DNA from: a virus
Taxonomy: Duplodnaviria; Caudoviricetes
Strand: one strand, 5' to 3'
Virus record (IMG/VR): IMGVR_UViG_3300002220_000062
Span: 1 to 64,000 of that record
DNA: 64,000 nt
Shown: in pieces, positions 1,593 through 41,936 of the stretch
Numbering within the stretch: the stretch's first letter is position 1
Layout of the letters: each line of letters begins with the position of its first letter
Made by a program: the position numbers and the translations under genes
Notes under the pieces: generated by a model
Database searches by the model: none
The model's input: only the letters and a program-made list of their open reading frames with translations
Told to the model about the DNA's origin: nothing

Positions 1593-1615
1593 AATATTTC
1601 TCCCTTAATAATTTA

Positions 1616-1646
1616 CAAATATAATAAATTTTATGACAAAAGTCAA
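1616..1646 (-). promoter_or_regulatory. Bacteroidota-type promoter (TTGAC-N18-TATATTTG)
   Basis: TAnnTTTG -7 box just upstream of the 468..1592 gene; same spacing as six other copies in the window. Confidence 0.6.
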
Positions 1647-1689
1647 TACTTTTTTGTGAAAATATTGACTTTGCCCATTTTTATAATAG

Positions 1690-4101: not shown

Positions 4102-4119
4102 ATCATTTAATTAAACTTA

Positions 4120-4150
4120 CAAATATACTACTTTTTTTTATTAAAGTCAA
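4120..4150 (-). promoter_or_regulatory. Bacteroidota-type promoter (TTGAC-N18-TATATTTG)
   Basis: -7 box upstream of the portal gene; same architecture as 1616..1646. Confidence 0.6.
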
Positions 4151-4193
4151 GTCATTCTTTATGAAATATAAAAAATGACTTGTTTCTTAATAG

Positions 4194-6473
4194 CTATTTG
4201 TTTACATTAAAAACATTTGTTTGATTATCATTTACTTGTGGAAAGTTTCTTCTAAAAAATGAATCTTCTGATAAAGACCTGGTTGGATTATTTTCATTAT
4301 TCTTAGCTGAAATAGTTCTCTTAGTTCTATCTTCTCTTAAAATAAATAACATAATTCCTGCAGATACCCTATCAAAGTTACCATCAGAGTTCCACTTTAT
4401 ACATTCTTCTATATATGCTAAACTACGAAGTCTATGAAGATTAAGTCTTGCGTCATCTTCATCACCGTGTGCTTTAACTAACATCCAGTCTGCTTGTAGT
4501 AATCTACCCCACTTGTTTATATCTTTATTAGCGTGAGTTCCCTTAGCTCTATTACCATATAGATTAGTTTGTTTAACAAAATCCATATCTTTTAGTATTT
4601 GGGGAGTATCAGCCAAGTAGTGTAGTGCATTAAATTTATCAAAGTAACTAAACAAACCTTTTAAGTTGCTCTCATAATTTGCTTCTGCATTATAGAACTT
4701 CAGTGTTCTTAATGCTATTTCATAAGCCTCATTTGCTGTTCTTGGTCTACCAGAATACTCTGCTACAATTCTATCAGTAAAAGTATCTAATACTAATATA
4801 CTAAATAATGAACCTCCAGCGTCAGCATCAATAGGGTCAATCCCTGCAATATACCTACCTCTTATAATCTGCCCCTCACCATTCTTACGTGGCATCTCAA
4901 ATATCTCAAGGCATCCAGTTCTATCTCCTGTAGAAATATCATATGAACGTAATGGAAATTTTGAAGCGGTAGGTCTCCAAACTATATCTCCTGTAGAATC
5001 TGCAATTAAATCACCTACATAATGTTCAGCAAGAAATGCTTCTCTCTTAACCATTATGTTTTCTAAATACTCCTTTAAGTCGGCTACTGGAAATACTGTT
5101 CCCTCTGTACGCATCACTGCCTCTTGAGGTGTCATTGGTTCCTCAGCTTTCTTCTGAGTAATAGCCCTAGCATCAGATGAACTATATTTTACTTGATACC
5201 TATCAAGACATATTTCAACCATTGCTTTGATTACATCTGGCTCACCATTAACAGGGTCATAACAATTATTCCTGTTTAAATATGCACCCCAGAAGAATCC
5301 ACATCCAGTGCTACCATCTGTATTCTTATCATAAACATTAGGAATACCAAAGATATTATATGCACCAGGATTATAAAATAGTTTTTCAGAACCCTCAAAT
5401 GAAGCCCCCTCTGTACCACCTGTACCACCTGCTAACATATAACCAGATGCTATTCCCCCATCTTCTACAGCTTTTCTATTTACGTTCCAAGCTTTTTCAA
5501 GATTAGGAAATAATCCATCTTCTTCATAATGTATAAATGGACCCCTGATACCCCTAGCCTTATCTGGATTATCCTTTAAGGATATACCAAATACTGAGGA
5601 TAAGAAACCACGTCTAGTACCATATTCATCTTCGTAACCTAATTGGACTTCCATAGCTCTTTTCCCATCTACTAATCTCATACGAGGTAGTGGTGTATTG
5701 TCAGCTATCCAGTCTAACGTATCTAGGATTTTACCCCATATACCTTTATCTCCAGATAAGAAACCTTTCTCAGATGCTAAATGGAAGTTTGGGTTACCAG
5801 ACCCTGGAAGAACATACATATTTCTAGGACTCCAAGCTGCTGCTTTAAATGAGAAACCTACACCCCTAGTCTTTAATAACTTTCCGTGTTGTCCAGCTTC
5901 TTTACCAGCATGTACATAGTGAAAGAATAAATAATCACCTAACCATACTTTAGGAAACTTTCTAACCCTTTCCCCTTTCTTTTTACCTTTAGTACCCTCA
6001 GCTTTTTCTACCAACCAAATTGGTGTGTAGTTCCAATAGAAGTAAAGTTCTCCAGGTATCCATTCACCATCTGGTCTTACTAATCCATGTTTCCATTTAT
6101 ACAATTCTTCTTTCCAGAACATTGCATACTCAGACTTAGGATTTCCATTTGGTATGATATTAGTATACTTACCATTCTTTTCAAAGAATATGGCTTGTTC
6201 CCTAAAGAAATCCATATCTTCTAATATGTGTGGATTATGTATATCTACAACCCTTCTACCATCTTCATAATCTACTTCTTTACCTGCTTCATTAGTATAA
6301 GTCATTATAGCTTTATTTGCTATAAATCCTCTTTCCTCTTCAGGTGCAATTAAGTTTTGTATAAATTTTACTGTTGATATATATTCTAAAATATCATCCC
6401 ATACTTCCTTAGGTAAAGATTTCTTTAACTCCTCAGTAATAGGGGTCTGATATGAATTCATTTTTATTTCCAT
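4194..6473 (-). CDS. terL: Terminase large subunit
   Basis: LKTRGVGFSF Walker A-like segment, YEEDG Walker B-like segment, GGTGG motif, RNase H-like nuclease domain (IAGIDP, NYESN, GNFDRVSA). Confidence 0.92.
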   Translation of the reverse strand: MEIKMNSYQTPITEELKKSLPKEVWDDILEYISTVKFIQNLIAPEEERGFIANKAIMTYTNEAGKEVDYEDGRRVVDIHNPHILEDMDFFREQAIFFEKNGKYTNIIPNGNPKSEYAMFWKEELYKWKHGLVRPDGEWIPGELYFYWNYTPIWLVEKAEGTKGKKKGERVRKFPKVWLGDYLFFHYVHAGKEAGQHGKLLKTRGVGFSFKAAAWSPRNMYVLPGSGNPNFHLASEKGFLSGDKGIWGKILDTLDWIADNTPLPRMRLVDGKRAMEVQLGYEDEYGTRRGFLSSVFGISLKDNPDKARGIRGPFIHYEEDGLFPNLEKAWNVNRKAVEDGGIASGYMLAGGTGGTEGASFEGSEKLFYNPGAYNIFGIPNVYDKNTDGSTGCGFFWGAYLNRNNCYDPVNGEPDVIKAMVEICLDRYQVKYSSSDARAITQKKAEEPMTPQEAVMRTEGTVFPVADLKEYLENIMVKREAFLAEHYVGDLIADSTGDIVWRPTASKFPLRSYDISTGDRTGCLEIFEMPRKNGEGQIIRGRYIAGIDPIDADAGGSLFSILVLDTFTDRIVAEYSGRPRTANEAYEIALRTLKFYNAEANYESNLKGLFSYFDKFNALHYLADTPQILKDMDFVKQTNLYGNRAKGTHANKDINKWGRLLQADWMLVKAHGDEDDARLNLHRLRSLAYIEECIKWNSDGNFDRVSAGIMLFILREDRTKRTISAKNNENNPTRSLSEDSFFRRNFPQVNDNQTNVFNVNK

Positions 6474-17873: not shown

Positions 17874-18238
17874 GGGGGTGCCTGGTTTTGACAAGGTATA
17901 TGAATTAATATTAATCAGCCAGAGAGATAACTGTAAACTAAGGTGATTTTATATAAATGGAAACATTAATAAACAAATCGTAGCTAATATGAACATAGTT
18001 CATAATATTTTAAAAGCAGAACAAGGTTCTGATATTGTAGAATTTAAATTAGCAATTGCAGCCTAAGCAATAAAAATAAAGGCAAGGAGTTTAGTAGTTC
18101 TTGTAAAAATTACTTGGTGGAAGACACTATTAAATTAGTTGTCCCTATCTAACTAAAGAGTTTAAACTATAGTAAAGCTGTAATAATTAATATTAAGGAA
18201 ATGTTTTGGACAGGGGTTCGAGTCCCCTCACCTCCACA
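17874..18238 (+). ncRNA. ssrA: tmRNA
   Basis: 5' GGGGGTG-CCTGGTTTTGAC pairs with 3' CACCTCC-A; T-arm AGGGG-TTCGAGT-CCCCT; internal tag frame 17959..18066 ends in LAIAA*. Confidence 0.92.
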
Positions 18239-22004: not shown

Positions 22005-22244
22005 ATGCAGTATAAATCAAATCATCAGCCACTTGCGAGAATAAGAGTATCTCTTGAGGCTAAAATAGCTTTAATGCTACAAGAACCTGATAAATCTACA
22101 GATGTTACATTTGTTAGAGAGGATGGAAGTAAAGTAATACAGACATTAAGTGATGTATTCTTACAAGGAAAGAATCCAAGTATTATTGTAGCAGACTTAA
22201 AAGCTATCCAGCATGATTTAAATGCTAAATATTTTACAGTATGA
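22005..22244 (+). CDS. Hypothetical protein
   Basis: 79 aa, ATGA overlap with the next gene. Confidence 0.5.
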   Translation: MQYKSNHQPLARIRVSLEAKIALMLQEPDKSTDVTFVREDGSKVIQTLSDVFLQGKNPSIIVADLKAIQHDLNAKYFTV

Positions 22245-22657
22245 GTATGTTTATTCCAATAAAAAAGAAAGAAGAAGTGAAAAAACCAATTGTTAAAGGC
22301 TATAATATTTCTGTAGCTATAGAAAATGGTGGTTATTGTTTTCGAGTAGAAGACGAATATATAGCTGTAAATTGCTTTAGTAGTTCTTTTGCAAATTGTC
22401 AATTAATGACAATATCACCAATAGCTAACATTAAAAATGTAAAAGATACTAATATTATTAAATCATTGTTAAAAAAAATATATAATACTATCGGTAAAAG
22501 AATGATAGCTATTGATATTAACAAAAGTTATGAAGAAATAGTATTAAATCAATTAGCTCCATATTCTCTTGATGTTAAAAGAATGGATTATACAAGTTCT
22601 AATGGTAGCGAAATGGTAATGTGTGTTTTTAGATTAAATACTGAAACAATAAATTAA
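22241..22657 (+). CDS. Hypothetical protein, paralogue of 50372..50782
   Basis: Shared NCQL...DI..SY...Y.SSNGS.M motifs. Confidence 0.6.
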   Translation: MSMFIPIKKKEEVKKPIVKGYNISVAIENGGYCFRVEDEYIAVNCFSSSFANCQLMTISPIANIKNVKDTNIIKSLLKKIYNTIGKRMIAIDINKSYEEIVLNQLAPYSLDVKRMDYTSSNGSEMVMCVFRLNTETIN

Positions 22658-22699: not shown

Positions 22700-23185
22700 A
22701 TGGCAAAAGCAAAAAAAAGTACAGGAGTAGCATTAGTAGAAGGAACTCAAAGTTTAGCAACATTAGGTCAGGCCGATATTCCTGGAATGTTGAAAATAGT
22801 TCTTGCGAAAATTAAAGAATTAAAAGGCAATATGCCTGAAACTTCTAAAACAACAGGAATTCTTCCAGGGTTTGACAAAAAAGTTAAAGAAATTGATACT
22901 GTTGAAGAGTTAATTAAAGCTCATTCAAGTATTATAGGAAGAGCTAAAGCTTATAATGAATCTGCAGAAATGTTAGAAGTTAACATTGAAAAATTTCCTT
23001 TTAAATTAGAAGGAAGTACTGCTGAAGAGTGGATTAATGATATTAAATCTACTATTAACATTGTAAAAAACAAAGTAGCTTTAGACAAATTTGAACAAGT
23101 AAGAATTAAATTGGAATCTAATCTTTCTGCTAAGATGAAATTAGCTAAAGATTTAGAAGATTGTCAAAATATTCTAATTGATTAA
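22700..23185 (+). CDS. Hypothetical helical protein
   Basis: 161 aa ORF. Confidence 0.6.
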   Translation: MAKAKKSTGVALVEGTQSLATLGQADIPGMLKIVLAKIKELKGNMPETSKTTGILPGFDKKVKEIDTVEELIKAHSSIIGRAKAYNESAEMLEVNIEKFPFKLEGSTAEEWINDIKSTINIVKNKVALDKFEQVRIKLESNLSAKMKLAKDLEDCQNILID

Positions 23186-23188
23186 ATT

Positions 23189-23458
23189 ATGCTTACTACT
23201 GGTACTAAGGTAGTACAACAAGAATTTAAAAAGGGGAATAAAGTATATCCCCTTTTTTTAACATCTAATGGATATAGACTAAATGACTTAATAGAAGCAA
23301 TTGTAGAAAAAACAAGTAATTTCACTGGATGTATTGTAATTAAATGTACAAAAGGTTATATATTTGATTTTGCTAGCAAAAGTGATACTTTCACAGTATA
23401 TGCAAGACATTTTAGTCATAAAAAGTATAATAAAACAGATTTATATGAAATATACTAG
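23189..23458 (+). CDS. Small protein ending in YEIY (array member 1)
   Basis: C-terminus DLYEIY*. Confidence 0.55.
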   Translation: MLTTGTKVVQQEFKKGNKVYPLFLTSNGYRLNDLIEAIVEKTSNFTGCIVIKCTKGYIFDFASKSDTFTVYARHFSHKKYNKTDLYEIY

Positions 23459-23663
23459 AGAAAATTTATTTGTTGGACTTATATTTCAGGCTTATGGAGA
23501 ACTTTATAGAATAGAAGAACTAAATGAGTATAAAGCAGTAATACTAGCATTTAAAAATAATCATAGATTCACACATTCTTATAATAATTTACTACAATCT
23601 TTAAATTTTGGTAGAAGTTATATTATTATGAATACTAAAAAAGATTTATATGAAATATACTAA
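23445..23663 (+). CDS. Small protein ending in YEIY (array member 2)
   Basis: Starts MKYTREN within the previous gene's YEIY codons; ends DLYEIY*. Confidence 0.55.
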   Translation: MKYTRENLFVGLIFQAYGELYRIEELNEYKAVILAFKNNHRFTHSYNNLLQSLNFGRSYIIMNTKKDLYEIY

Positions 23664-23886
23664 AGAACAATTACCAGGTATTATACTTGTTGAAAATGGG
23701 TCTGGAACAAAAATAAAACTAGAAGTTACGAAAGATTGTAATTATTACAAAGCTTCATCTACTAGTTGGGGGAAAAGTTATGAGTATTCAGCAGAAACAA
23801 TAGTGCAGAATCTCAATAAAAAACATTGGAATCTAATTTCAATATTGTACGCTACAAGTAAAGAAAAAACTTATGAAATATACTAA
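23650..23886 (+). CDS. Small protein ending in YEIY (array member 3)
   Basis: MKYTKEQ...KTYEIY*. Confidence 0.55.
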   Translation: MKYTKEQLPGIILVENGSGTKIKLEVTKDCNYYKASSTSWGKSYEYSAETIVQNLNKKHWNLISILYATSKEKTYEIY

Positions 23887-23892
23887 ATAAAT

Positions 23893-24180
23893 ATGAACAA
23901 ATTAAAATTTAAAATTGGAGATTTTATAAGACCAATAGAGGGTAAATCATCTTCTAACTATAACGATTTATCAAATCTAAAGCTTTTACAAGTGATTAAA
24001 CCTTTACAGGTGTCATCTGCTAAATCAGGTGTAGAATGTAAAGTTATTGATGGTGTTGTATCATTAATGGGTCCACAGTATTATTCTGCTTTAGGAAAGA
24101 ATCGTTCTGGTAAAACTATTAGAGTATACGTAGATGCCTTTGAATTAGTTCCTAATATAGATAATTATGAAATATTTTAA
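23893..24180 (+). CDS. Small protein ending in YEIF (array member 4)
   Basis: KFKIGDFI beta-rich start; ends DNYEIF*. Confidence 0.55.
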   Translation: MNKLKFKIGDFIRPIEGKSSSNYNDLSNLKLLQVIKPLQVSSAKSGVECKVIDGVVSLMGPQYYSALGKNRSGKTIRVYVDAFELVPNIDNYEIF

Positions 24181-24424
24181 AGATGTACCATTAGCTGTAC
24201 CAGTAATTGTAACTTTTGATAATAATAATAGAATTCAAGGTGAAATTACAACAAATGAAAAGAAACTTTATTTTCATAGTAATTCTAGAGCTGGATGTGG
24301 TCCTAAATATAAAGGGTTTAAATGTTCTTGGACTTTTGATGTTTTATCAAAGGAAAGATATACAGATAATGTAAAAAAAATTGAGTTAGTAACACCATTA
24401 ACACCAGTGTATGAAATATATTAA
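24167..24424 (+). CDS. Small protein ending in YEIY (array member 5)
   Basis: MKYFKD...PVYEIY*; paralogue of member 6. Confidence 0.55.
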   Translation: MKYFKDVPLAVPVIVTFDNNNRIQGEITTNEKKLYFHSNSRAGCGPKYKGFKCSWTFDVLSKERYTDNVKKIELVTPLTPVYEIY

Positions 24425-24671
24425 TGGAATACCAATAGAAGTCTTAGTTTTAGTAAAACATAGACGGCATAAAGAAGAAATAGAAGGAATTATTTCACAT
24501 AATAATGATATACACTTTCTCTTTCATAATAATAAAATTGATGGAGGACATCCAAAAAAATTTGGATATTCAAAATCCTGGGTTTTTGCCAAAACACGAG
24601 GTGGATTTACAGAAAATATTTTAAGTGTTAGACTTGCTATACAAAAAGAAGAATATTATGAAATATTTTAG
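24411..24671 (+). CDS. Small protein ending in YEIF (array member 6)
   Basis: MKYING...EYYEIF*; shares G.I...FH.N...G(F/Y)..SW.F with member 5. Confidence 0.55.
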   Translation: MKYINGIPIEVLVLVKHRRHKEEIEGIISHNNDIHFLFHNNKIDGGHPKKFGYSKSWVFAKTRGGFTENILSVRLAIQKEEYYEIF

Positions 24672-24731
24672 TTAAATGACTCTAAGAGGTTATTATAGAT
24701 AAGGCACATCTATATTTAATGAAGAGAGAAG

Positions 24732-26657
24732 ATGCAGGAGAATTTAAACGTATATTTTATAGGTAATATAAACTATACAGAATTTAAGTCCTCCACTATT
24801 GAAGAGTGTTATGAATATTTAAAAGAGAAACCTGTCATTTCTCTTGATATTGAGACCACTCACAAGTTTGGAGGAAGGTTCAGAGGAGAAGGATTAAGTC
24901 CTTATTTATCTGAGATAGTTATGTTTCAAATTGGAGATTTAGACCGCCAATATGTTATTGACTATAGAGTAACAGATGTTAAGATGCTTTTGCCATTATT
25001 AATATCACCTGATATTACAATTGTTGGACAAAATATTAAGTTTGAATACTTACATATTTTACACAATGAAGGAGTCAGAATTAATAAGGTCTATGATACT
25101 ATGGTTGTGGAACAAATATTATTCAATGGATTAAATCCCGAAGCTTCGCTTAAAGCATTGAATGAAAAATATTTGAACATATTCGTAGAAAAAAGTATAA
25201 GATTAGAATTTTCAACAATTGGTAATAAACCATTTACTGTTAATCAGATTTTATACGGTGCTGAAGATATACTATACCCTCTACAAATTAGAGAGTTCCA
25301 ATTACAAGACGCTATAAAGAAAGATGTCACTAATTGTGTTTCACTTGAAATGTTATTTGTAGAAGTACTTGGGGATATAGAATACAAAGGTATGAATTTC
25401 GATACAAAAATATGGGAAGACAACTACATAAAAAATTTAGCTAATTACAAATCGATATTACTAGAGCTCGATGAATATGTATTGACATATTATAGAGATT
25501 CTGAATTTATTAATAAACAGTACGACCTCTTCACAAGTGAAGAAAGGACGACAATCAGTTGGACTAGCTCACAGCAAGTCATTAAATTTTTTAAGTATTT
25601 GGGTATATGCCCACAAGCAGTTTCTAAAACTACAGGAAATTTATCTTATACAGTTAATGCGAAAGTATTATCTGCTTCTTTATTTACAATGAATAAGGAT
25701 ATTCCTAAACAGGAAAAGGATTTAATTCTTAAGTATTTGAAATTCAAACAACAAGAACAATCTTGTACTATCTTTGGTACAGATTTCTTTAAGTATATTA
25801 ACCCTGTAACTAAAAGACTACATAGTAACTTTAGACAAATTCTAAATACAGGAAGAATAAGCAGTACAAATCCTAATTTACAAAATATACCAGCTAGCAA
25901 TGAGTTTAGAGCTGCTTTTACAGCACCTATTGGTTATAAGATTGTTAATGCGGATTATAGTGGTCAAGAGACTGTTATTTTAGCTAATGTATCTAAAGAA
26001 TCTAATATTGTAAAACTTATACTTGAGGGTGGTGACATGCACTGTTTTGTAGTTAAAGCATTACATCCAGAGTTAAGTGATTTATCTGATGATGATATTA
26101 AAAAACATCATAAAGATAAAAGACAAGTAGCTAAGGCTGCAGGATTTGCAATTCAATTCGGTGGTAATGGTCATACAATATCAAAGAATTTAGGTATACC
26201 TGATGAACAGGGAGAAGAAGTATATAATGCTTATTTTAAAGCATTCCCACAACTAAAGAATTACTTTAATAAAGTACAACGGGAATCAAAACAGCAAGGT
26301 TATATATTAATAGACCCAATTACAGGTAGAAAAAATTGGTTTAGAAAACCTAAAAATAATAAAGAACAAGGTGTTATTGATAGAGCAGCATTAAACTTTC
26401 CAATACAAGGAAGAGCTGGAAGTATCACAAAGTTCGCAGGTATTCTTTTTAGGAGATGGGTATTAGAAAACAACCTACAAGATGTAGTTAGTATTACTAA
26501 TCTCGTGCACGATGAAATTAATGTAGAGGCTCGTGACGATTATGCTGAATTAACAGCACGACATTTAGAAGAATCAATGGTAGAAGCTGGATTAAAATGG
26601 TGTGTAGACGTACCATTAAAAGCAGATGCTGTAATAACTGACCATTGGAGTCATTAA
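24732..26657 (+). CDS. polA: DNA polymerase, family A, with 3'-5' exonuclease domain
   Basis: LDIET exonuclease motif, TGRISSTNPNLQNIP, ADYSGQE (motif A), RQVAKAAGFAIQFG (motif B), VHDEI (motif C). Confidence 0.95.
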   Translation: MQENLNVYFIGNINYTEFKSSTIEECYEYLKEKPVISLDIETTHKFGGRFRGEGLSPYLSEIVMFQIGDLDRQYVIDYRVTDVKMLLPLLISPDITIVGQNIKFEYLHILHNEGVRINKVYDTMVVEQILFNGLNPEASLKALNEKYLNIFVEKSIRLEFSTIGNKPFTVNQILYGAEDILYPLQIREFQLQDAIKKDVTNCVSLEMLFVEVLGDIEYKGMNFDTKIWEDNYIKNLANYKSILLELDEYVLTYYRDSEFINKQYDLFTSEERTTISWTSSQQVIKFFKYLGICPQAVSKTTGNLSYTVNAKVLSASLFTMNKDIPKQEKDLILKYLKFKQQEQSCTIFGTDFFKYINPVTKRLHSNFRQILNTGRISSTNPNLQNIPASNEFRAAFTAPIGYKIVNADYSGQETVILANVSKESNIVKLILEGGDMHCFVVKALHPELSDLSDDDIKKHHKDKRQVAKAAGFAIQFGGNGHTISKNLGIPDEQGEEVYNAYFKAFPQLKNYFNKVQRESKQQGYILIDPITGRKNWFRKPKNNKEQGVIDRAALNFPIQGRAGSITKFAGILFRRWVLENNLQDVVSITNLVHDEINVEARDDYAELTARHLEESMVEAGLKWCVDVPLKADAVITDHWSH

Positions 26658-33120: not shown

Positions 33121-33696
33121 ATGTTTGATTTGAATGAAAAGAAATTTGGAGGAACCGTTATTTTTAATAATGGACAAGCTGGTATAGCTAAAGGTGTAGA
33201 AATTTCTGTGGAGAAAAGGCAAGCGGATGAGCCAGATACATATCCTAATTATAAATTAGTGGTATCTGATGGTGTATCAAAAGTAAATCAAGGATTTTAT
33301 TATCCTAAATCTGACCCTAATAAGAGTGAGGAACAAAATGACCAAGCTGCAGTTAGAGAAGTTGGTAGAATTATGCATATAGCTAGAGCCGTAATGGGTG
33401 CTAACTATACATTTCCTAACGTATCTAGTGCAAAAGAAGCATTTGATGTATTATTTAATTTAATACGTGAAAATGCAGGTGGTAAAACATTTAATGTCTT
33501 TGTTACTTATGGAACAACTGGATATCCAGACAAATATCTTAAATTGAGATATTTTAATTTTATTGAACCAAGCGATACTGCAGTTAGTAGATTAAAAGCT
33601 ACTCCTTCAGATTTAATGGAGAGATTAGAACAAGATGCTCCAGTGTCTGGTTCATTGGATACCCCAGCTGCCCCTGAGATAGAGAAATGGTCATAA
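33121..33696 (+). CDS. Probable single-stranded DNA-binding protein
   Basis: Between the Sak4-like ATPase and primase; low-complexity tail ending near Trp. Confidence 0.45.
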   Translation: MFDLNEKKFGGTVIFNNGQAGIAKGVEISVEKRQADEPDTYPNYKLVVSDGVSKVNQGFYYPKSDPNKSEEQNDQAAVREVGRIMHIARAVMGANYTFPNVSSAKEAFDVLFNLIRENAGGKTFNVFVTYGTTGYPDKYLKLRYFNFIEPSDTAVSRLKATPSDLMERLEQDAPVSGSLDTPAAPEIEKWS

Positions 33697-35524: not shown

Positions 35525-35920
35525 ATGTTAATAGCGGTATACGGTTCTTTAAGAAAAGACCTAACAAATTACAATGCTTATCTAAGGGATTCAAAGTATG
35601 TAGGTACATATGATACCAAACCCATCTACACATTAAAGAGTTTAGGATATTTTCCAGGACTTTTAAAAAATGGTACTACATCTATAGTAATGGAAGTATT
35701 TAGAGTAGATGATGAAACTATGAGTTCAATTGATAGATTAGAAGGTTATCAATTAAATGGTGGTAGTAATCATTATGAAAAAGAAACTATCAAAACACCA
35801 TTTGGTGATGCATTTATATATTTTTATGCAAAACCAGATAACATAAAAGAAGCACCAACAGTATTATCAGGAGATTGGAAAGAGTATTTAAAAAATAAAA
35901 AAATGTATCATAATGCTTAG
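35525..35920 (+). CDS. Gamma-glutamylcyclotransferase (AIG2-like)
   Basis: AVYGSLRK...FPGL...IDRLEG...SGDW. Confidence 0.85.
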   Translation: MLIAVYGSLRKDLTNYNAYLRDSKYVGTYDTKPIYTLKSLGYFPGLLKNGTTSIVMEVFRVDDETMSSIDRLEGYQLNGGSNHYEKETIKTPFGDAFIYFYAKPDNIKEAPTVLSGDWKEYLKNKKMYHNA

Positions 35921-36749
35921 AAATTTTAGACCTAGTATCAGAAGTAGACATCCATCTCATGCACCACTTAGAGAAAGAGGTGCTTTTCCATTATTTCCAT
36001 TCAGGTCTGTTATTAGATTTGGCTCAACAACAGAGTTACCAGATTCTGTAACTATGGGAGGAAATAGAATTGAAATTAACACAGTAGAATCTGTTAAAAA
36101 TTCATCTAGTAAATTACGGATGAAAAACTGTTTTGACAATGAACAAGTTAAAACAGCAGATTGGTGTTTAGCAGGAGAAGATAATAGTCCTCAATCTGTA
36201 TTAGATAGAGTAGCTAATTTTGGATATCCTGTTATTTCTAAAAGTTTTTTTGGAAGTAGAAACCAAGGTAATAAGAAACATGATACTGCTGAGGAATTGG
36301 CAGCTTGGTTAGTAGGAAAAGACTTAAGAAACTATTTATTTGAAAAGTATTATAACTATTCTAGAGAATATAGATTACATATATCAAGAAATGGATGTTT
36401 CTATACTTGTAGAAAGATGTTAAAAGAAGGTACAAATGAAGAAGACAAATGGTATCGTAATGATGCACATTGTGTTTGGATTTTGGAAGAAAATGATTTA
36501 TTTGATAAACCATCGAATTGGGATGCAGTTGTTGCAGAATCTGTTAAAGCATTACAATCCGTAGGATTGGATGTTGGAGCAGTAGATTTAAGAATACAAT
36601 CAGCTACAAACAAAAATGGTACTGTAAGAGAAAATCCAGATTTTATAATTGTGGAAATTAACTCAGCACCATCTTTTGGTGATGTAACATTAGGTAAATA
36701 TAAAATAGAATTAACAAACTTATTAACACAAAAAAATGTCAGAAACTAA
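35913..36749 (+). CDS. ATP-grasp ligase (RimK-like)
   Basis: YPVISK, REYRLH, GLDVGAVD and IVEINSAPS motifs. Confidence 0.85.
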   Translation: MLRNFRPSIRSRHPSHAPLRERGAFPLFPFRSVIRFGSTTELPDSVTMGGNRIEINTVESVKNSSSKLRMKNCFDNEQVKTADWCLAGEDNSPQSVLDRVANFGYPVISKSFFGSRNQGNKKHDTAEELAAWLVGKDLRNYLFEKYYNYSREYRLHISRNGCFYTCRKMLKEGTNEEDKWYRNDAHCVWILEENDLFDKPSNWDAVVAESVKALQSVGLDVGAVDLRIQSATNKNGTVRENPDFIIVEINSAPSFGDVTLGKYKIELTNLLTQKNVRN

Positions 36750-37425
36750 AAAACAAAAAGTAATTATTGGTGTAGAAAGTAAACTATCACCAGATGAATT
36801 GGCTTTCTTCTCATTAAGATTTGATGTAGAACAAATAGAATTTGAATCATTATTGAAAAAACGCCCATCAAAAGGTGTAGATTTTCTATATTTTTCAGGT
36901 GGAGCAGATGTAAATCCAGCTCTTTATGGTCAAAAAAAAGGTAAATTTACTTTTATAGATGAAAAAAGAGATGAAATTTGTCAAAATATAGTAAATGGTT
37001 ATCCAGGTACACCAAAATTGGGGATTTGTAGAGGTGCTCAATTTTTAACAGTTATGGCTGGTGGTAGATTAATTCAACATATTGAAGGTCATACATCTTC
37101 ACATAAAATTGATGTACATTTTGAAGGTAATTCAAAGCCATCTACATATGATATAACATCGACACATCATCAAATGATGTATCCATTTAATATTGGTGCA
37201 GATAGATATTCACTAATTGGTTGGGCAACTATGTTTAGAAGTATGGTTTATTTAGATGGTAATGATAATCAAATTAGCGTACCTGAAAAATTTGTAGAAC
37301 CAGAAATTATTTATTACAGACAAACTCGTTCTTTAGCAATACAAGGACACCCAGAGTATAGTAATTGTAATAACAATACAAAAGACCTTTGTTTAGATTT
37401 AATCGAAACATATTTATTACGTTAA
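36736..37425 (+). CDS. Class I glutamine amidotransferase / peptidase C26
   Basis: SGGADVNP, LGICRGAQ, STHHQ and QGHPE catalytic motifs. Confidence 0.9.
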   Translation: MSETKKQKVIIGVESKLSPDELAFFSLRFDVEQIEFESLLKKRPSKGVDFLYFSGGADVNPALYGQKKGKFTFIDEKRDEICQNIVNGYPGTPKLGICRGAQFLTVMAGGRLIQHIEGHTSSHKIDVHFEGNSKPSTYDITSTHHQMMYPFNIGADRYSLIGWATMFRSMVYLDGNDNQISVPEKFVEPEIIYYRQTRSLAIQGHPEYSNCNNNTKDLCLDLIETYLLR

Positions 37426-37455
37426 AAAAAATATTAAAATAAAAATAACAAAAAG

Positions 37456-38265
37456 ATGATTAAAAATGTAACATTGGGTGCAGACCCTGAATTATTTTTA
37501 GAAAAAGACGGAGAAGTCGTTTCCGCAGAAGGATTAATTGGAGGGACTAAAGAAGAACCAAAAGCAATTAGTGAAGAAGGACATTGTATTCAAGAAGACA
37601 ATGTAATGATTGAATTTAATATTCCAGCCTCTAAAACAGCAGTTGAATTTAGAGACAATATTAACTTTGTTAAGGATTATTTATCAGCATTAGCAACAAT
37701 ACAGGGAGGAAAATTAAATTTCTCTGCTTCTGCTGAACTTGATACTAAGTATCTTCAAACAGACCAAGCTAAATTGTTTGGTTGTGACCCTGATTATAGT
37801 GTACATTTAAAACGTCAAAATACTCCACCAGAATCAACAGGTTCTTTAAGAACTTGTGGAGGTCATATTCATGTTGGCTATGATAATCCTTCTCAAGAAG
37901 TAAGTGAGAAAATTATCTATGCTATGGATTTTGTATTAGGGCTTGAGTCAATTAATTTAGACCCAGATGATAGAAGAAGAGAAATGTATGGTAATGCTGG
38001 ATGCTTTAGATTTAAAGAATATGGTGTTGAATACAGAACTTTATCTAATTTTTGGATTACAACAAATGAATTAATGGAATGGGCATTTAATAGTACATTA
38101 AAAGCAATTGAATTAGTTAATTCAGGTGTAATTGATTTATTGATTAAAGATTATGCAAAAGCAGTTAAAATTGTTATTGATAACAATGATAAAGAAGCTG
38201 CAAAATTATTACTAAAAGTAGTAAATAAAATAATAGAAAAAAAATTAGTAACAATAGAAAAATAA
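37456..38265 (+). CDS. phiEco32-like COOH-NH2 ligase type 2
   Basis: LGADPELF, QEDNVMIEFN, GCDPD, GGHIHVG and YGVEYRTLSNFW motifs. Confidence 0.9.
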   Translation: MIKNVTLGADPELFLEKDGEVVSAEGLIGGTKEEPKAISEEGHCIQEDNVMIEFNIPASKTAVEFRDNINFVKDYLSALATIQGGKLNFSASAELDTKYLQTDQAKLFGCDPDYSVHLKRQNTPPESTGSLRTCGGHIHVGYDNPSQEVSEKIIYAMDFVLGLESINLDPDDRRREMYGNAGCFRFKEYGVEYRTLSNFWITTNELMEWAFNSTLKAIELVNSGVIDLLIKDYAKAVKIVIDNNDKEAAKLLLKVVNKIIEKKLVTIEK

Positions 38266-38271
38266 AAAAAG

Positions 38272-40158
38272 ATGTGTGGAATCTTCGCGTGGGCTGGAAA
38301 AGACCCAAGAAAATTTAATAAAACTAAGTTAGATATATTAGGTATATACAATGAAGTTAGAGGAGGTCATTCTTGTGGCATAGCAAAAGATGGTGAAATA
38401 TCAATAGGTATAGATAAAAATAAAGCTTATAAAGACTTTTTAGCTACTACTGGATATGATGCACCAAAAAAATATCCAGTTGTAATTGGCCATACAAGAC
38501 AAAGCACCTATGGGGCTCATACCGTAGCTAACGCCCATCCTTTTGGATTTGGTATTGTTGGTGAAGGATATGAGTTCATGGGATGTCATAATGGTACATT
38601 ACTTAATCATCATGATTTAGCTATAGAATTTGGTATTGATACTAATGAATCTGTTAGTGGAAGTGTTCCAGGAGTTAAAGTTACAAGGTCTAAAATTGAT
38701 AGTGAAATATTATTAGAAATAATATATAAAACTAAAAAATATAAAGTCCTTAGTGCTTATAATGGAGCAGCAGCACTAGTTTGGACTGATGTTAATAAAC
38801 CTAATGTAATTTATTGTTATCATGGTAAATCTAGAAAAAGAGATTTTGTAAATCTTGAGCAAGAAGAAGAAAGACCATTATATTACTGGCAAGAAACCAA
38901 AAATAGTTTATTTGTATCATCAATGGAAAGTAGTTTATCTGCTATTGGTGGTAATGAAGATACTATTAAGGAGTTTGAATTTAATACTGTTTATGAAATA
39001 ACAGATGGTAATATTGATACTGCCAAGAAAATTAAAATTACAAGATTAAATAGATTTCAAACAGGTGTCGAAAACACAAAAAAGGATTATTGCAGAAACC
39101 TAAATCAAGAGTCTTCTGCAAATCACGCAAGGCAAGACATAGAAGATGAATGGGGTATGCGCTCTTGGGAACCTACTAGAAATCGTACTATTCTAGAAAA
39201 AGAGGTTGAAAAAGCACATAATAAATCTACAGAATTTAGTGGAAAAGAAGCCTTAGATTTAAAAGATGCAATTAACAATAATATTTATACAGAAAATACT
39301 TTACGAAATTCTAATTCTTATGGTAAACAAGTTTATTTTAATAAACTTAGATACTGGAGAACTGGACATAGAATAAATGGTGTATTTTGTTATATTGCAA
39401 ATTTTGGTTTTTACTTCTTAGGATACAGTGTAAAAGAATCAGAAACTAGATTCTGGGATATTGTAAATAAACCATTTGTAAATGATGATTTTACAACACC
39501 AGATAAAATTCCAGCAATGGATTTAGATTCTGTTACTTACCCATTTGAACATACTGCTAAAAATGAAATAACTAATCCACCATTATTCTTTATGTATGAT
39601 GGTATAAAAGTTAAAACTGCTGCAGATTATATAGCTTGTTCAACAATGGAATCAACTAAAGAGAAAGTATTTACTTTTGAACAGTTGTCTCATTGTTCTT
39701 CTCATCCTATTATGGATATAGAAGAAAAATACAAACCATATTCTAGGCAAGAAGTTATGTTTGAAGGAGTACCTGTTACTAATGTATTCTGCCCATTAGG
39801 TGCAGAAAGAATTTATACATTTGAGAATGGTAACTGTATAAACATGCAACCTATAGTTACAGTAAGAAGATTAGAAGAAGAAAATTCAACAGTTAACCAA
39901 ACTAAATTAGCTTTAGTTATTGATAATCTTGAAAAAATTGAAGAAGATTTATCTGCTCTTCCAGTTAATGTTAATTCTAATAATGATTTATTAGAAGATG
40001 ATATTAATGATATGTTTAAAGAATCACTACGAAAATTTCCACAGTATATAAAAAAATTAGATACTTATGGAGCAGGTAGAGGATTTGAGGCTAGTAATAT
40101 TTTAAAGGAATTTGTCAACAAAGCTACAACTTTAGTAGCAATAGAAGAAAAAGAGTAA
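38272..40158 (+). CDS. Class II (Ntn) glutamine amidotransferase with C-terminal extension
   Basis: MCGIF, RGGHSCG, GHTRQST, NAHPF, HNGTL and DSE motifs. Confidence 0.88.
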   Translation: MCGIFAWAGKDPRKFNKTKLDILGIYNEVRGGHSCGIAKDGEISIGIDKNKAYKDFLATTGYDAPKKYPVVIGHTRQSTYGAHTVANAHPFGFGIVGEGYEFMGCHNGTLLNHHDLAIEFGIDTNESVSGSVPGVKVTRSKIDSEILLEIIYKTKKYKVLSAYNGAAALVWTDVNKPNVIYCYHGKSRKRDFVNLEQEEERPLYYWQETKNSLFVSSMESSLSAIGGNEDTIKEFEFNTVYEITDGNIDTAKKIKITRLNRFQTGVENTKKDYCRNLNQESSANHARQDIEDEWGMRSWEPTRNRTILEKEVEKAHNKSTEFSGKEALDLKDAINNNIYTENTLRNSNSYGKQVYFNKLRYWRTGHRINGVFCYIANFGFYFLGYSVKESETRFWDIVNKPFVNDDFTTPDKIPAMDLDSVTYPFEHTAKNEITNPPLFFMYDGIKVKTAADYIACSTMESTKEKVFTFEQLSHCSSHPIMDIEEKYKPYSRQEVMFEGVPVTNVFCPLGAERIYTFENGNCINMQPIVTVRRLEEENSTVNQTKLALVIDNLEKIEEDLSALPVNVNSNNDLLEDDINDMFKESLRKFPQYIKKLDTYGAGRGFEASNILKEFVNKATTLVAIEEKE

Positions 40159-40160
40159 GT

Positions 40161-41936
40161 ATGGATAATTTAGTAAAAATAAATGAAATGGTGGTAACTA
40201 TTGATGGTACCACTAAGCCTAAGCAAGATTGTCGCAGAATGGGTGGAGAATTCTACCTAAAAGGAGAAATCAATGTTGAAAACTCTGGACAATGCTATTA
40301 TATCAATGGAAAGTATTATAAATATAATACTGGATATATAGTATTTGACCATAGAGTAGGTCAATACATAATTAAAAATACTGATAAACTTCAAGAAGGG
40401 GTAGTCCGAATTGAAGCAAATGGTAATTTAGTTATGGGTTTCTTTACACGTGAAGAGAATGGAGCTATAATTACAACACTAGAGGACCCAACTGGTAATA
40501 CTTATGTATGTTTGAATAAAGAAATTCTAGAAAATACGCACTATATAGAAAATTTATACACAGGTAGATATTCTCACAGATTATTTACAAGAGTAGAACA
40601 TTTTTTAAATCCAGGCAATGTTTCTAGTACTTTAAAAAACACGCTACCTTACGACTCTAGGGGAGCTATGGATGACTTAATGGCATACCATAAAAATCAT
40701 CATAAACCAAAAATTAGTAAAGAGGTAAAACTCTATAGTCCAATATTAGGGGACTTAACTTTTGGTGTAGAGTATGAGACTACAAAAGGACAAATTCCAC
40801 CTACAAAATGTAAAGAATTAGGTCTTATTGCTTTGAAAGATGGAAGTATAGTAGGATTAGAATATGCTACTATTCCACTTCAAGGAGAGAAAGGGTTACA
40901 AACTTTGATTAATGGTATTGTAGAACTAAGAAAATATACTTCTTATGATAAGGACTGCTCATTACATTTCCATATTGGTAATATACCAAGAACAGAAGAA
41001 TTTTTCTTAGCTGTTTGGAAAGTGTTATGTACATTAGAAAATCCAATGTTTGGATTATTCCCTCTTTATAAAAAATATAATTTTGGAGTTAAAAGAAAAC
41101 ATTACACAAAACCATTACCAATAGTTGAAACATTATTTCAAATGGATAAAGTTATTACTAAAGATAATATTAAATCGAATTTTGGAATTCTTTATAATTA
41201 TTTATCAATGGGACAACCTTATTCATCTGTTAAAAATGATTTAAACAATGTAATGTCTCACCCATCTGACCCTCACGGGAATAGTAAGTGGAATATTAGA
41301 AGTAGATATCATTGGGTTAATTTAATACCATTGTTATTTGGTAATAAAGAAACAATTGAATTTAGACTTCATACTCCAACTTATGATTTAGACAAGATAG
41401 TAAATTATCTTGTTTTATGTACATCAATTATAAATTTTGCTAAGAACAATACAAAAGCTATATTAACTCAACCTGAAATTCTTATGAATTTAAATTTGGG
41501 TGATGTAGTATATAAAATTAGTGGTCAAATGAATTCTGTAGAAATCAATAGATTTGCTGATTATGTATATGCTTATATTGGTCATAGAAGAGATTATAAC
41601 TATATGGAAAGTAGCCGTGGAGATTTAATTGGTAATGAAGATGGTTTCAGAGTTAAAAACAAAATACCTTGGGCTGTAGCAAATACTATGGAAGTTGTAT
41701 TATCTAAAATTCCGTCAAATAGAAAAAGAGATTCTTTATCAGGATATGCTAATCAATTTAATTGGAATGTAGCACAGATTAGAAATGCTGCAGAAGACCA
41801 TGTAAGAAATGTTGAAGCAAGAAGAGGCGGTGGTATACAATTCTTTGGAAATGGAGAACCCCAAGTAGTTCCTCAAGCTGTTCAAGATATTGACCCATTT
41901 GATTTAATAGTAGAAAACGATGGTCAAGAACATTAG
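40161..41936 (+). CDS. Putative amidoligase
   Basis: FGVEYET, KDGSI.GLEY, CSLHFHIG and TIEFRLH motifs. Confidence 0.82.
   Translation: MDNLVKINEMVVTIDGTTKPKQDCRRMGGEFYLKGEINVENSGQCYYINGKYYKYNTGYIVFDHRVGQYIIKNTDKLQEGVVRIEANGNLVMGFFTREENGAIITTLEDPTGNTYVCLNKEILENTHYIENLYTGRYSHRLFTRVEHFLNPGNVSSTLKNTLPYDSRGAMDDLMAYHKNHHKPKISKEVKLYSPILGDLTFGVEYETTKGQIPPTKCKELGLIALKDGSIVGLEYATIPLQGEKGLQTLINGIVELRKYTSYDKDCSLHFHIGNIPRTEEFFLAVWKVLCTLENPMFGLFPLYKKYNFGVKRKHYTKPLPIVETLFQMDKVITKDNIKSNFGILYNYLSMGQPYSSVKNDLNNVMSHPSDPHGNSKWNIRSRYHWVNLIPLLFGNKETIEFRLHTPTYDLDKIVNYLVLCTSIINFAKNNTKAILTQPEILMNLNLGDVVYKISGQMNSVEINRFADYVYAYIGHRRDYNYMESSRGDLIGNEDGFRVKNKIPWAVANTMEVVLSKIPSNRKRDSLSGYANQFNWNVAQIRNAAEDHVRNVEARRGGGIQFFGNGEPQVVPQAVQDIDPFDLIVENDGQEH

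What the first reader, a model, noticed from the sequence alone, without database searches (positions are those of the whole stretch)
23189..24671. Array of six small genes all ending in YEIY/YEIF through a shared TATGAAATAT junction
Seen: six consecutive, mostly dissimilar ORFs end DLYEIY, DLYEIY, KTYEIY, DNYEIF, PVYEIY and EYYEIF. At four junctions the same bases give the next gene's MKY start (14-nt overlap). At the other two (23886, 24671) the motif persists although that ATG does not start the next long ORF. Inference: either a conserved C-terminal docking, degradation or modification signal on a set of effector proteins, or a recombination/translational-coupling joint for shuffling gene cassettes.
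Basis: partly seen in the sequence, partly recalled or inferred. Interest (0 to 1): 0.75.

Follow-up and report, generated by a model that had tools for sequence, protein, structure and literature searches.

The report
Shared YEIY tail on phage proteins
Six small, mostly unrelated genes of an uncultured crAss-like phage all end in the same four amino acids (Tyr-Glu-Ile-Tyr/Phe); relatives carry 5 to about 30 such genes, and selection keeps the ending at the protein level, so it looks like an undescribed address tag whose reader is unknown.

Summary
Six consecutive ORFs (23189-24671) end YEI[YF]-stop through an exact TATGAAATAT. These are the only six such sites in the 91-kb genome.

The tail is kept as protein, not as DNA.
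- Six other phage records carry 3-32 such endings each, all on one strand.
- They use 21 spellings of the last five codons.
- Seven orthologue pairs differ 10 times synonymously and never non-synonymously in the tail, while their bodies are 38-84% identical.

The motif is essentially only C-terminal. It follows a polar linker behind small, mostly beta-barrel bodies that fall into about 50 BLAST clusters. g5 and g6 belong to a widespread 75-aa domain that carries other tails in other lineages.

The MKY start and the 14-nt overlap are by-products, because TAT-GAA contains an ATG. Where that ATG is unused it is often removed (TAC). The repeated junction also marks whole-cassette gains and losses.

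My best reading is a C-terminal recognition tag on a hypervariable set of accessory proteins, with an unknown reader. A 152-161-aa helical protein that is always adjacent is a lead only.

I found no description of it. Earlier notes of this scan report similar arrays with different tails in other phages.

The parts
23189..23458 (+). g1, 89 aa, ends KTDLYEIY. The body has no detectable relative.
   Evidence: The single-sequence AF2 model was unusable (pLDDT 43). A hairpin followed by a T-run lies inside the ORF at 23228-23257.
23445..23663 (+). g2, 72 aa from the ATG embedded in g1's tail (MKYTRE...), ends KKDLYEIY.
   Evidence: The start is inferred by analogy with the other junctions.
23650..23886 (+). 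g3, 78 aa (MKYTKE...), ends KEKTYEIY.
   Evidence: The Atlas model aligns residues 1-65 with small beta-barrel-like domains and leaves the tail outside; this is a lead only.
23893..24180 (+). g4, 95 aa (MNKLKFKIGD...), ends NIDNYEIF. It starts 6 nt after g3's stop, so it has no MKY start.
   Evidence: The Atlas structure resembles small viral proteins and CarD/TRCF-RID or SH3-like barrels; this is a lead only.
24167..24424 (+). g5, 85 aa. It is a small beta-barrel domain (residues 1-74) with a flexible linker and tail, TPLTPVYEIY.
   Evidence: AF2 with 47 sequences gave pLDDT 83.8; the last strand is 69-74 and residues 75-85 are coil with lower confidence. The fold is Sm/Hfq/Tudor/SH3-like, Z about 5. 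The family has 882 representatives.
24411..24671 (+). g6, 86 aa, a paralogue of g5, ends KEEYYEIF.
23444..23458 (+). Junction 1: TAT GAA ATA TAC TAG. The ATG at 23445 starts g2.
23649..23663 (+). Junction 2. The ATG at 23650 starts g3. It shares about 30 nt with junction 1.
23872..23890 (+). Junction 3. The embedded ATG opens only MKYTK* (23873-23890).
24166..24180 (+). Junction 4. The ATG at 24167 starts g5.
24410..24424 (+). Junction 5. The ATG at 24411 starts g6.
24657..24675 (+). Junction 6. The embedded ATG opens only MKYFS* (24658-24675). Homology to relative L007 resumes exactly here.
22700..23185 (+). A 161-aa, probably helical protein (phrog_2574, function unknown). It lies directly upstream of the array. 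The family co-occurs with tail-bearing genes and is adjacent to them in every record where it was found. It is a candidate partner, and this is a lead only.
24732..26657 (+). Family A DNA polymerase. It marks the downstream border of the variable locus.

Best explanation
The six genes form a hypervariable array of small accessory proteins in a crAss-like phage. Most are small beta-barrels, and most are unrelated to one another.

What they share is a protein-level C-terminal tag: Tyr-[Glu/Asp]-[Ile/Leu]-[Tyr/Phe]-COOH on a short polar, flexible linker. The wider consensus is (E)-P-x-Y-E-I-Y.

I read the tag as a short linear recognition motif that hands all these different bodies to one common reader. 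It could be a docking hub (phage or host) or a protease that times their removal.

- The codons TAT-GAA contain an ATG. In tight arrays this ATG is used as the start of the next gene. The tail and stop codons then dictate that gene's first five residues (MKY[T/I/F][K/N/D/E/R/S]) and give the 14-nt overlap.
- Where the ATG is not used, it is often erased by the synonymous codon TAC.
- The repeated 10-15-nt junction also acts as microhomology at which whole cassettes are gained or lost.

Shown here: the tail, its selection at the protein level, its independence from the overlap, the diversity of the bodies, and cassette breakpoints at the junction.

Inferred: that the tail is read by a common partner.
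For: **Non-random and C-terminal only.**
- The window holds 6 sites against 0.16 expected.
- Relatives G001-G006 hold 9, 16, 3, 20, 6 and 32 sites. All lie on one strand, and the controls give 0-1.
- YEI[YF] is C-terminal 6, 14 and 16 times and internal 0, 2 and 2 times in G000, G002 and G004.

**Selection acts on the protein.**
- There are 21 DNA spellings of the last five codons.
- Seven reciprocal-best orthologue pairs between G002 and G004 keep YEIY. Their 28 tail codons show 10 synonymous and 0 non-synonymous differences, while the bodies are 38-84% identical.
- The closest relative, L007, spells the tail TTC TAA where the window has TTT TAG.
- In 76 non-redundant tails the logo is Y 76, E 73, I 73 and Y 71/F 5.

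**The tail does not depend on the overlap.**
- Genes at the start of an array lack MKY but have the tail.
- In G006, 20 of 32 tails use TAC, which has no ATG, and the next gene starts 2-3 nt after the stop.
- Among tails whose ATG is unused, TAC makes up 28 of 47, against 18% in the background (Fisher 3e-10).

**The bodies differ.**
- There are about 50 BLAST clusters among the 76 tails.
- g1-g4 do not match the g5/g6 profile except in the tail.
- G000 and G003 are collinear and each holds six tailed genes at the same locus. The bodies are unrelated except for g5/g6 and one G003 gene.

**The tail lies outside the fold.** In the AF2 model of g5 the last strand is 69-74 and residues 75-85 are coil with lower confidence.

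**The tail is modular.**
- In the g5/g6 domain family, 20 of 62 single-domain representatives end Y[ED][ILV][YFW]. None of the 87 longer ones do.
- Other members end in other recurring tails: LPIFN, EWDxxEN and LK[IV]NQN[DE].
- On an unrelated metagenome contig, at least 9 small ORFs with several visibly different N-termini (body types not tested) all end EWDxxxN[ED].
Against: - No reader was found, and nothing shows binding or degradation.
- The bodies may all be one very old beta-barrel superfamily. In that case the tail could be an inherited remnant, kept for a reason intrinsic to the fold. Only g5 has a confident model.
- g1-g4 have no homologues anywhere, so they are supported as genes only by their long open frames and the shared tail.
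- Within the window itself all six tails use the identical 10-mer. The chance of that from codon usage alone is about 0.001 by my arithmetic from the figures. In this one genome, therefore, recent duplication, gene conversion or overlap constraint also contributes.
- There are no expression data.
Confidence: 0.6

Rival explanations
1. The DNA joint is the selected feature. Under this reading the conserved junction is a recombination site kept in order to shuffle gene cassettes, and the peptide is incidental.
For: - Two clean whole-cassette insertions or deletions between G002 and G004 break inside the junction 15-mer. The G004 record positions are about 33296-33631 and 23601-23831.
- Homology between L007 and the window resumes exactly at 24657.
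- G000 and G003 hold different cassettes at the same locus.
Against: - The DNA is not conserved: there are 21 spellings, and orthologues differ only synonymously.
- Only 10 nt plus the TA of the stop codon are invariant in the window, and the flanks are unalike.
- I saw no inverted repeat by eye (no search was run). No recombinase was seen in the few neighbouring genes that were scanned.
- Breakpoints at gene ends are what any short repeat would give.
Confidence: 0.1
2. The motif is a translational-coupling device. Under this reading it is kept because it lets terminating ribosomes restart at the embedded ATG, in a host group that, to my knowledge, makes little use of Shine-Dalgarno pairing.
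For: - Most TATG junctions start the next ORF with a 14-nt overlap: 35 of 54 tails that carry the ATG.
- An unused ATG is often erased, which shows that it is an active start.
- No + strand terminator-like site was found inside the array.
Against: - The tail persists without any ATG, as in 20 of 32 tails in G006.
- It also persists at array ends with no following gene.
- The amino acids are kept while the nucleotides change.
Confidence: 0.07
3. The tail is intrinsic to the proteins. Under this reading it is the last structural element, or a strand that adds onto a neighbouring barrel to form homo- or hetero-oligomers, inherited from one ancestral gene by tandem duplication.
For: - g5 and g6 are paralogues, and g2/g3/g5 are weakly alike.
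- The modelled or matched bodies (g3, g4, g5) all look like small beta-barrels. Sm-like barrels often form rings, which is general knowledge.
Against: - In the g5 model the tail is coil beyond the last strand.
- Linker length varies.
- The same domain family carries quite different tails or none.
- There are about 50 body clusters with no detectable kinship.
Confidence: 0.15

Closest known systems
C-terminal tip of bacterial SSB (acidic ...D-D-D-I-P-F-COOH), a hub motif read by many replication and repair proteins (general knowledge)
   Same: It is a very short acidic/hydrophobic/aromatic peptide at the free C-terminus, on a flexible linker behind a small barrel domain, and it is read as a free end. 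One homologue of the g5/g6 domain ends EDLPF and a few end LPIFN.
   Different: Here one tag sits on dozens of different proteins, rather than one protein meeting many readers. The tail has no Asp run and no Pro-Phe. The sequence Y-E-I-Y does not fit the SSB tip.
C-terminal degrons such as the ssrA tag (...LAA) read by ClpXP, or Tsp (general knowledge)
   Same: A few terminal residues decide the fate of otherwise unrelated proteins. This would suit early proteins that must be removed on time.
   Different: The sequence is unlike LAA-type degrons. No protease link was found. The phage's own tmRNA tag ends LAIAA.
Hyperplastic regions of T4-like phages, where small early genes are shuffled at repeated promoter/stem-loop elements (PeSL; recalled from memory, not checked here)
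   Same: They are arrays of small, fast-changing, mostly unknown early genes, with gain and loss at a short repeated sequence at gene borders.
   Different: There the repeat is intergenic regulatory DNA. Here it is coding, it is conserved as protein and not as DNA, and the genes overlap.
Cargo-loading peptides of encapsulins, and other terminal targeting peptides (general knowledge)
   Same: A short terminal peptide on a linker addresses unrelated cargo proteins to one receptor surface.
   Different: Nothing links these genes to the virion module. They lie in the block that holds the replication genes.
Other shared-tail arrays noted by this scan in other phages and elements (e1-4772764, e1-5359635, e1-5717004; AI notes, unchecked)
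   Different: The tails and the phage groups differ. None of those notes reports YEIY or the embedded start codon.

Membership tests
Tandem paralogue family (simple gene duplication) | Bodies detectably homologous to one another | tested here: not met
   Only g5/g6 are clear (2e-11); g2/g3/g5 are weak. With termini masked, g1-g4 are orphans among 345 small ORFs, and the g5/g6 profile matches them only in the tail.
g5/g6 small beta-barrel domain family (unnamed, no Pfam) | Profile match over the ~75-aa body (G..I.C.I ... YYI.QN..G ... GY.YSW ... V.N..L) | tested here: met
   This holds for g5 and g6 only. There are 882 representatives at E<=1e-3 in 1.84 billion proteins, including multi-repeat proteins. 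No Pfam or PHROG family matched. The body-only profile gives 4e-19 for g5 and 1e-14 for g6.
Sm/Hfq, Tudor, SH3-like small beta-barrels | Five- or six-stranded small barrel fold | tested here: inconclusive
   The g5 model (pLDDT 84) matches Hfq, Tudor and designed SH3 barrels at Z 4-5 and Foldseek E about 0.1. This is a resemblance at fold level only.
SSB C-terminal tip | Acidic run ending in [IL]-P-F-COOH | tested here: not met
   In 76 tails the consensus is Y-E-I-Y. There is no Pro at -1 and no Asp run.
Beta-clamp binding motif (QL[SD]LF) | Gln at the first position and Leu...Phe spacing | tested here: not met
   Position -4 is N 24, T 14 and Q only 8 of 76. Positions -3 to 0 are Y-E-I-Y.
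HbYX motif of proteasome/AAA activators | Hydrophobic residue, then Tyr at the penultimate position, then any residue at the C-terminus | tested here: not met
   The penultimate residue is Ile or Leu in 76 of 76 tails; Tyr is at 0 and -3.
Integron-type cassette site (attC with integrase) | Imperfect inverted repeats at the cassette border and a nearby tyrosine recombinase | not tested
   The junction alignment was run for conservation only. Just 12 nt are invariant and no inverted repeat was apparent by eye. No repeat search was run on the junctions and no integrase search was made.
Substrate of the phage's amidoligase/ATP-grasp cluster (35525-41936) | Co-occurrence of tail genes and ligase genes | tested here: not met
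   The ATP-grasp and 591-aa ligase genes are found only in G003. They are absent from the complete G004 record, which has 20 tails, and were not found in G002 (79% complete), G001 or G005.

The most novel reading that the evidence does not exclude
The tail is one half of a two-part phage system. A dedicated reader would gather a large, fast-changing repertoire of small beta-barrel effectors through a four-residue C-terminal address tag. The best candidate reader is the 152-161-aa helical protein that lies directly beside a tail-bearing gene in all eight records where it occurs.

Different phage lineages would then use different tags on the same kinds of bodies (YEIY, EWDxxxNE, LPIFN and others). 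That would make 'tag and reader' a general and so far undescribed way in which phages organise their accessory proteins.
Probability: 0.25. Interest if true: 0.85.

Novelty: new variant of a known kind. Interest (0 to 1): 0.7.

Why it matters
crAss-like phages are among the most abundant phages of Bacteroidota, and most of their early genes have no known role. Here up to about 30 genes of one phage are tied together by one invariant four-residue ending, roughly a third of the ORFs in a 35-kb block of one 175-kb relative.

That turns a crowd of orphan genes into a single testable question: what reads -YEIY-COOH?

The same domain carries other lineage-specific tails elsewhere. If that pattern holds, it points to a general rule for how phages address or time their accessory proteins. 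It would also give a simple sequence mark for finding hypervariable host-interaction genes in metagenomes.

The case is also a clean example of a protein motif that carries the next gene's start codon inside it, and whose repetition drives cassette turnover.

Tried and rejected
- **Pfam and PHROGs on all six proteins and their neighbours.** Nothing useful came back.
- **Word-indexed homologue searches for g6 and g4.** Each found only itself.
- **tblastn against 50,697 phage records.** A g5/g6 family member and the 161-aa protein gave no match.
- **Nearest cultured phage.** Cellulophaga phi14:2 has no YEI[YF]-stop site and no detectable 161-aa homologue.
- **First pattern scan.** A stricter scan gave 4 stretches. 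One of them, L036, is a different thing: a family with a shared N-terminus, MKYIKLFEEIDFD.
- **Tail as substrate of the amidoligase/ATP-grasp cluster.** Rejected by phyletic pattern.
- **Phage tmRNA tag related to the tail.** It is not; the tag ends LAIAA.
- **Complex prediction, 161-aa protein with g6.** The result was no answer (score 0.00). It counts neither for nor against binding.
- **AF2 of g1 without an alignment.** Unusable, pLDDT 43.
- **Profile searches of solved structures with A4 and A6.** Nothing meaningful.
- **The search for related loci with A4 or A5.** With P0082 it found no viral relative.
- **Sequencing runs.** No RNA holder is listed. Contigs from four DNA runs lie identically on the stretch, with no joints and no cassette variants.
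- **+1 frameshift fusing neighbouring ORFs.** Considered and dropped. Only the YEIF spelling (A-TTT-TAA) could slip. The Tyr-ending spellings cannot, and most junctions elsewhere do not overlap.
- **Literature.** No paper holds both 'YEIY' and 'phage', and two broader searches found nothing on such tails.
- **PHROGs on the EWD-tail contig L141.** No matches, so its viral nature is unproven.
Full report
**What is there.**

The window is the first 64 kb of a 91,453-bp virus record with 28.6% G+C. Its portal protein is 57.6% identical to that of Cellulophaga phage phi14:2, a member of the Crassvirales. It also encodes a terminase, a primase and a family A DNA polymerase. It is therefore an uncultured crAss-like phage.

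Genes from about 14 to 54 kb run on the + strand. Directly upstream of the polymerase gene lie six ORFs of 72-95 codons: 23189-23458, 23445-23663, 23650-23886, 23893-24180, 24167-24424 and 24411-24671. Every one ends YEIY or YEIF followed by a stop.

- The 10-mer TATGAAATAT occurs 8 times in the window, 6 of them here. Shuffles give 1.6.
- The codon-level pattern occurs 6 times against 0.16 expected, and nowhere else in the genome.
- YEI[YF] never occurs inside any of the 133 ORFs of 50 codons or more.
- Four junctions overlap by 14 nt and give an MKY start. The other two leave five-codon ORFs.
- Around the junctions only the 10-mer and the TA of the stop codon are invariant. Junctions 1 and 2 share about 30 nt.

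**Is the conserved thing DNA or protein?**

A pattern scan of IMG/VR, followed by searches of the matching records, found the same ending in six other virus records. They carry 9, 16, 3, 20, 6 and 32 sites, always on one strand, against 0-1 in the reversed-pattern control.

- G003 is collinear with the window's phage.
- G001, G002 and G004 share only about 24-36% identity in core proteins such as the polymerase, portal and terminase.
- In G006 (175 kb, complete) the portal search found nothing.

Across these records the last five codons are spelt in 21 ways: TAT/TAC, GAA/GAG/GAT, ATA/ATT/ATC/TTA/CTA, TAC/TAT/TTT, and all three stop codons.

Seven reciprocal-best orthologue pairs between G002 and G004 both keep YEIY. 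Their 28 tail codons differ 10 times synonymously and never non-synonymously, while the bodies are only 38-84% identical. The closest relative, L007 (87% polymerase identity), spells the last tail TTC TAA where the window has TTT TAG.

In 76 non-redundant tail-bearing ORFs the last four positions are Y 76, E 73/D 3, I 73/L 3 and Y 71/F 5. Upstream preferences are weaker: P at -5 in 30 ORFs, N/T/Q at -4, and E at -6.

**The start codon and the overlap are consequences.**

TAT-GAA contains an ATG in the +1 frame. When it is used, the tail and stop codons fix the next protein's first residues. ATG AAA TAT ACT/ATT/TTT is followed by a codon that begins with the last two bases of the stop. That gives MKYT-K/N, MKYT-D/E, MKYI-K/N, MKYF-K/N and MKYF/MKYT-R/S.

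Spelling variants of the tail give MKF, MKS, MRY, MSY and MIY, all of which are seen. Genes that begin after a non-overlapping border have unrelated N-termini but still carry the tail.

- In G006, 20 of 32 tails use TAC, which has no ATG. There the next gene starts 2-3 nt after the stop.
- Over all records, 35 of 82 tails have the ATG in use.
- Among the 47 where it is not used, TAC makes up 28, against 18% TAC in long ORFs (Fisher 3e-10).

So the embedded ATG is a real start that is either used or tends to be removed. The peptide is kept either way. Within the window all six tails use one spelling. Codon usage alone would give that about once in a thousand (my arithmetic). Here, then, overlap constraint and probably recent duplication or conversion (junctions 1 and 2) add to the identity.

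**What the proteins are.**

g5 and g6 are paralogues. A profile built from them and three relatives finds 882 representative proteins at E<=1e-3 among 1.84 billion, including proteins with up to six repeats of the domain. No Pfam or PHROG family covers it.

With 47 sequences AlphaFold2 gives a confident all-beta model of g5 (pLDDT 83.8). The last strand ends at residue 74, and residues 75-85 (TPLTPVYEIY) are coil with lower confidence. Structure searches give only generic small-barrel matches: Hfq/Sm, Tudor and SH3-like, at Z about 5.

g1-g4 match the profile only in the tail. They have no homologue in any search. Atlas models suggest small barrels for g3 and g4 as well, which is a lead only.

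The 76 tail-bearing ORFs (56-170 aa, median 84.5) fall into about 50 BLAST clusters once the termini are masked, and profile rounds merge only a few of them. At the same locus, G000 and its collinear relative G003 each hold six tailed genes. The bodies are unrelated except for g5/g6 and one G003 gene, while the flanking 161-aa gene is plainly orthologous (z about 50).

The array is therefore a hypervariable locus whose one constant is the tail.

**The tail is a module.**

Among the best 150 representatives of the g5/g6 domain, 20 of 62 single-domain proteins end Y[ED][ILV][YFW], and none of the 87 longer ones do. Other single-domain members end in other recurring tails: LPIFN, EWD..EN.., LK[IV]NQN[DE] and [ED]LWI.

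I followed one EWD-tailed member to a 28-kb metagenome contig. There at least nine neighbouring small ORFs all end EWDxxxN[ED]. Their N-termini look like several different kinds, though I did not compare the bodies. The nature of that contig is unproven.

So the same body takes different tails in different lineages, and different bodies take the same tail within one lineage. That is the behaviour of an address label. It is not the behaviour of a structural element or of inherited paralogy. Earlier notes of this scan describe comparable arrays with other tails in other phages. They are unchecked and I did not test them.

**Cassette turnover.**

Between G002 and G004, two whole genes are present in one record and absent in the other. 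The two flanks meet inside the junction 15-mer (positions as listed).

In L007 the array and the 161-aa gene are missing. The orthologue of ORF 22241-22657 runs on for about 30 codons and itself ends KEYEIF. Homology to the window resumes exactly at 24657. L008 lacks the whole block.

The junction thus serves as microhomology for gain and loss. Since its DNA is not conserved, I read this as a side effect and not as its purpose.

**How it most likely works.**

I commit to a C-terminal recognition tag on a set of accessory proteins, read by one partner (confidence 0.6). Docking to a hub and timed proteolysis are both open.

- The tail does not fit the SSB tip, the clamp-binding motif, ssrA-type degrons or HbYX.
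- The phage's amidoligase cluster is not linked to it.

One lead stands out: a 152-161-aa protein (phrog_2574, function unknown, no solved relative). From its sequence I judge it to be largely helical; no structure was predicted.

- In G000, G001, G002, G003, G004 and G006 it lies 3-79 nt upstream of a tail-bearing gene.
- In two further contigs it is flanked by genes ending YQIY and YAIF.
- It was not found in phi14:2, which has no tails.
- Shared ancestry of gene order could explain this pattern. A complex prediction gave no answer.

**Limits.**

- There are no expression data, and no RNA run is listed.
- Four DNA runs from three studies hold identical sequence, with no cassette variants.
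- The host is unknown.
- g2's start and the reality of g1's first 25 codons are uncertain. Those codons contain a hairpin followed by a T-run.

**Novelty.**

No paper in the library pairs YEIY with phage, and broader searches found no description of such tails. Short C-terminal tags are a known kind of thing. A tag shared by a phage lineage across up to about 30 unrelated small proteins, with the next gene's start codon inside it, is to my knowledge undescribed.

Noticed in passing
window 23228-23257 (+), inside g1: An A-run, a GGGG...CCCC hairpin and a run of seven T look like a two-way intrinsic terminator. It lies 43 nt after the 161-aa gene's stop, inside g1's codons 14-23 (dG -11.8 kcal/mol, z -2.2). 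It may end or attenuate the upstream transcript, and it raises doubt about g1's N-terminus.
   Followed up: partly
window 22700-23185 (+); also L130:2029-2505, L095:2429-2896, L128:15125-15589, L143, L147, L148: A family of 152-161-aa proteins of unknown function, which I judge helical from sequence. It sits directly beside tail-bearing genes in all eight records where it was found. It was not found in Cellulophaga phage phi14:2 or in 50,697 phage records by tblastn.
   Followed up: partly
L141 6749-10285 (metagenome contig Ga0208904_1000614): A second kind of array. At least nine small neighbouring ORFs, with several visibly different N-termini and including a g5/g6-domain member, all end EWDxxxN[ED]. 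None matches PHROGs.
   Followed up: partly
L036 (rev. strand) 619-4691, IMGVR_UViG_3300028299_000014: About ten consecutive ORFs of 73-236 aa share an N-terminus, M[KR]Y[IL]KLFEEIDFD[ED], with differing remainders. This is the mirror case, a shared head and not a shared tail.
   Followed up: no
L007 1-141 versus window 22600-22657 and 24657: In a close relative (polymerase 87% identical) the orthologue of ORF 22241-22657 has a different last ~30 residues and itself ends KEYEIF. The 161-aa gene and the six-gene array are absent there.
   Followed up: partly
window 17874-18237 (+): ARAGORN calls a phage tmRNA with tag peptide AEQGSDIVEFKLAIAA. That is shorter than the 35-aa tag proposed in another first-reader note.
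   Followed up: partly
L121:9261-11231 (-) versus window 24732-26657: The collinear relative G003 has a 657-aa gene with no Pfam match at E<=0.001 in the place of the window's family A polymerase. This may be a polymerase replacement of the kind reported for crAss-like phages (from memory).
   Followed up: no
All tail-bearing ORFs (G000-G006): The last Tyr codon is TAC in 35 of 77 tails, against about 18% TAC in long ORFs. This could be a codon-context effect before the stop, or a preference for Thr over Ile in the overlapping frame. It is unexplained.
   Followed up: no
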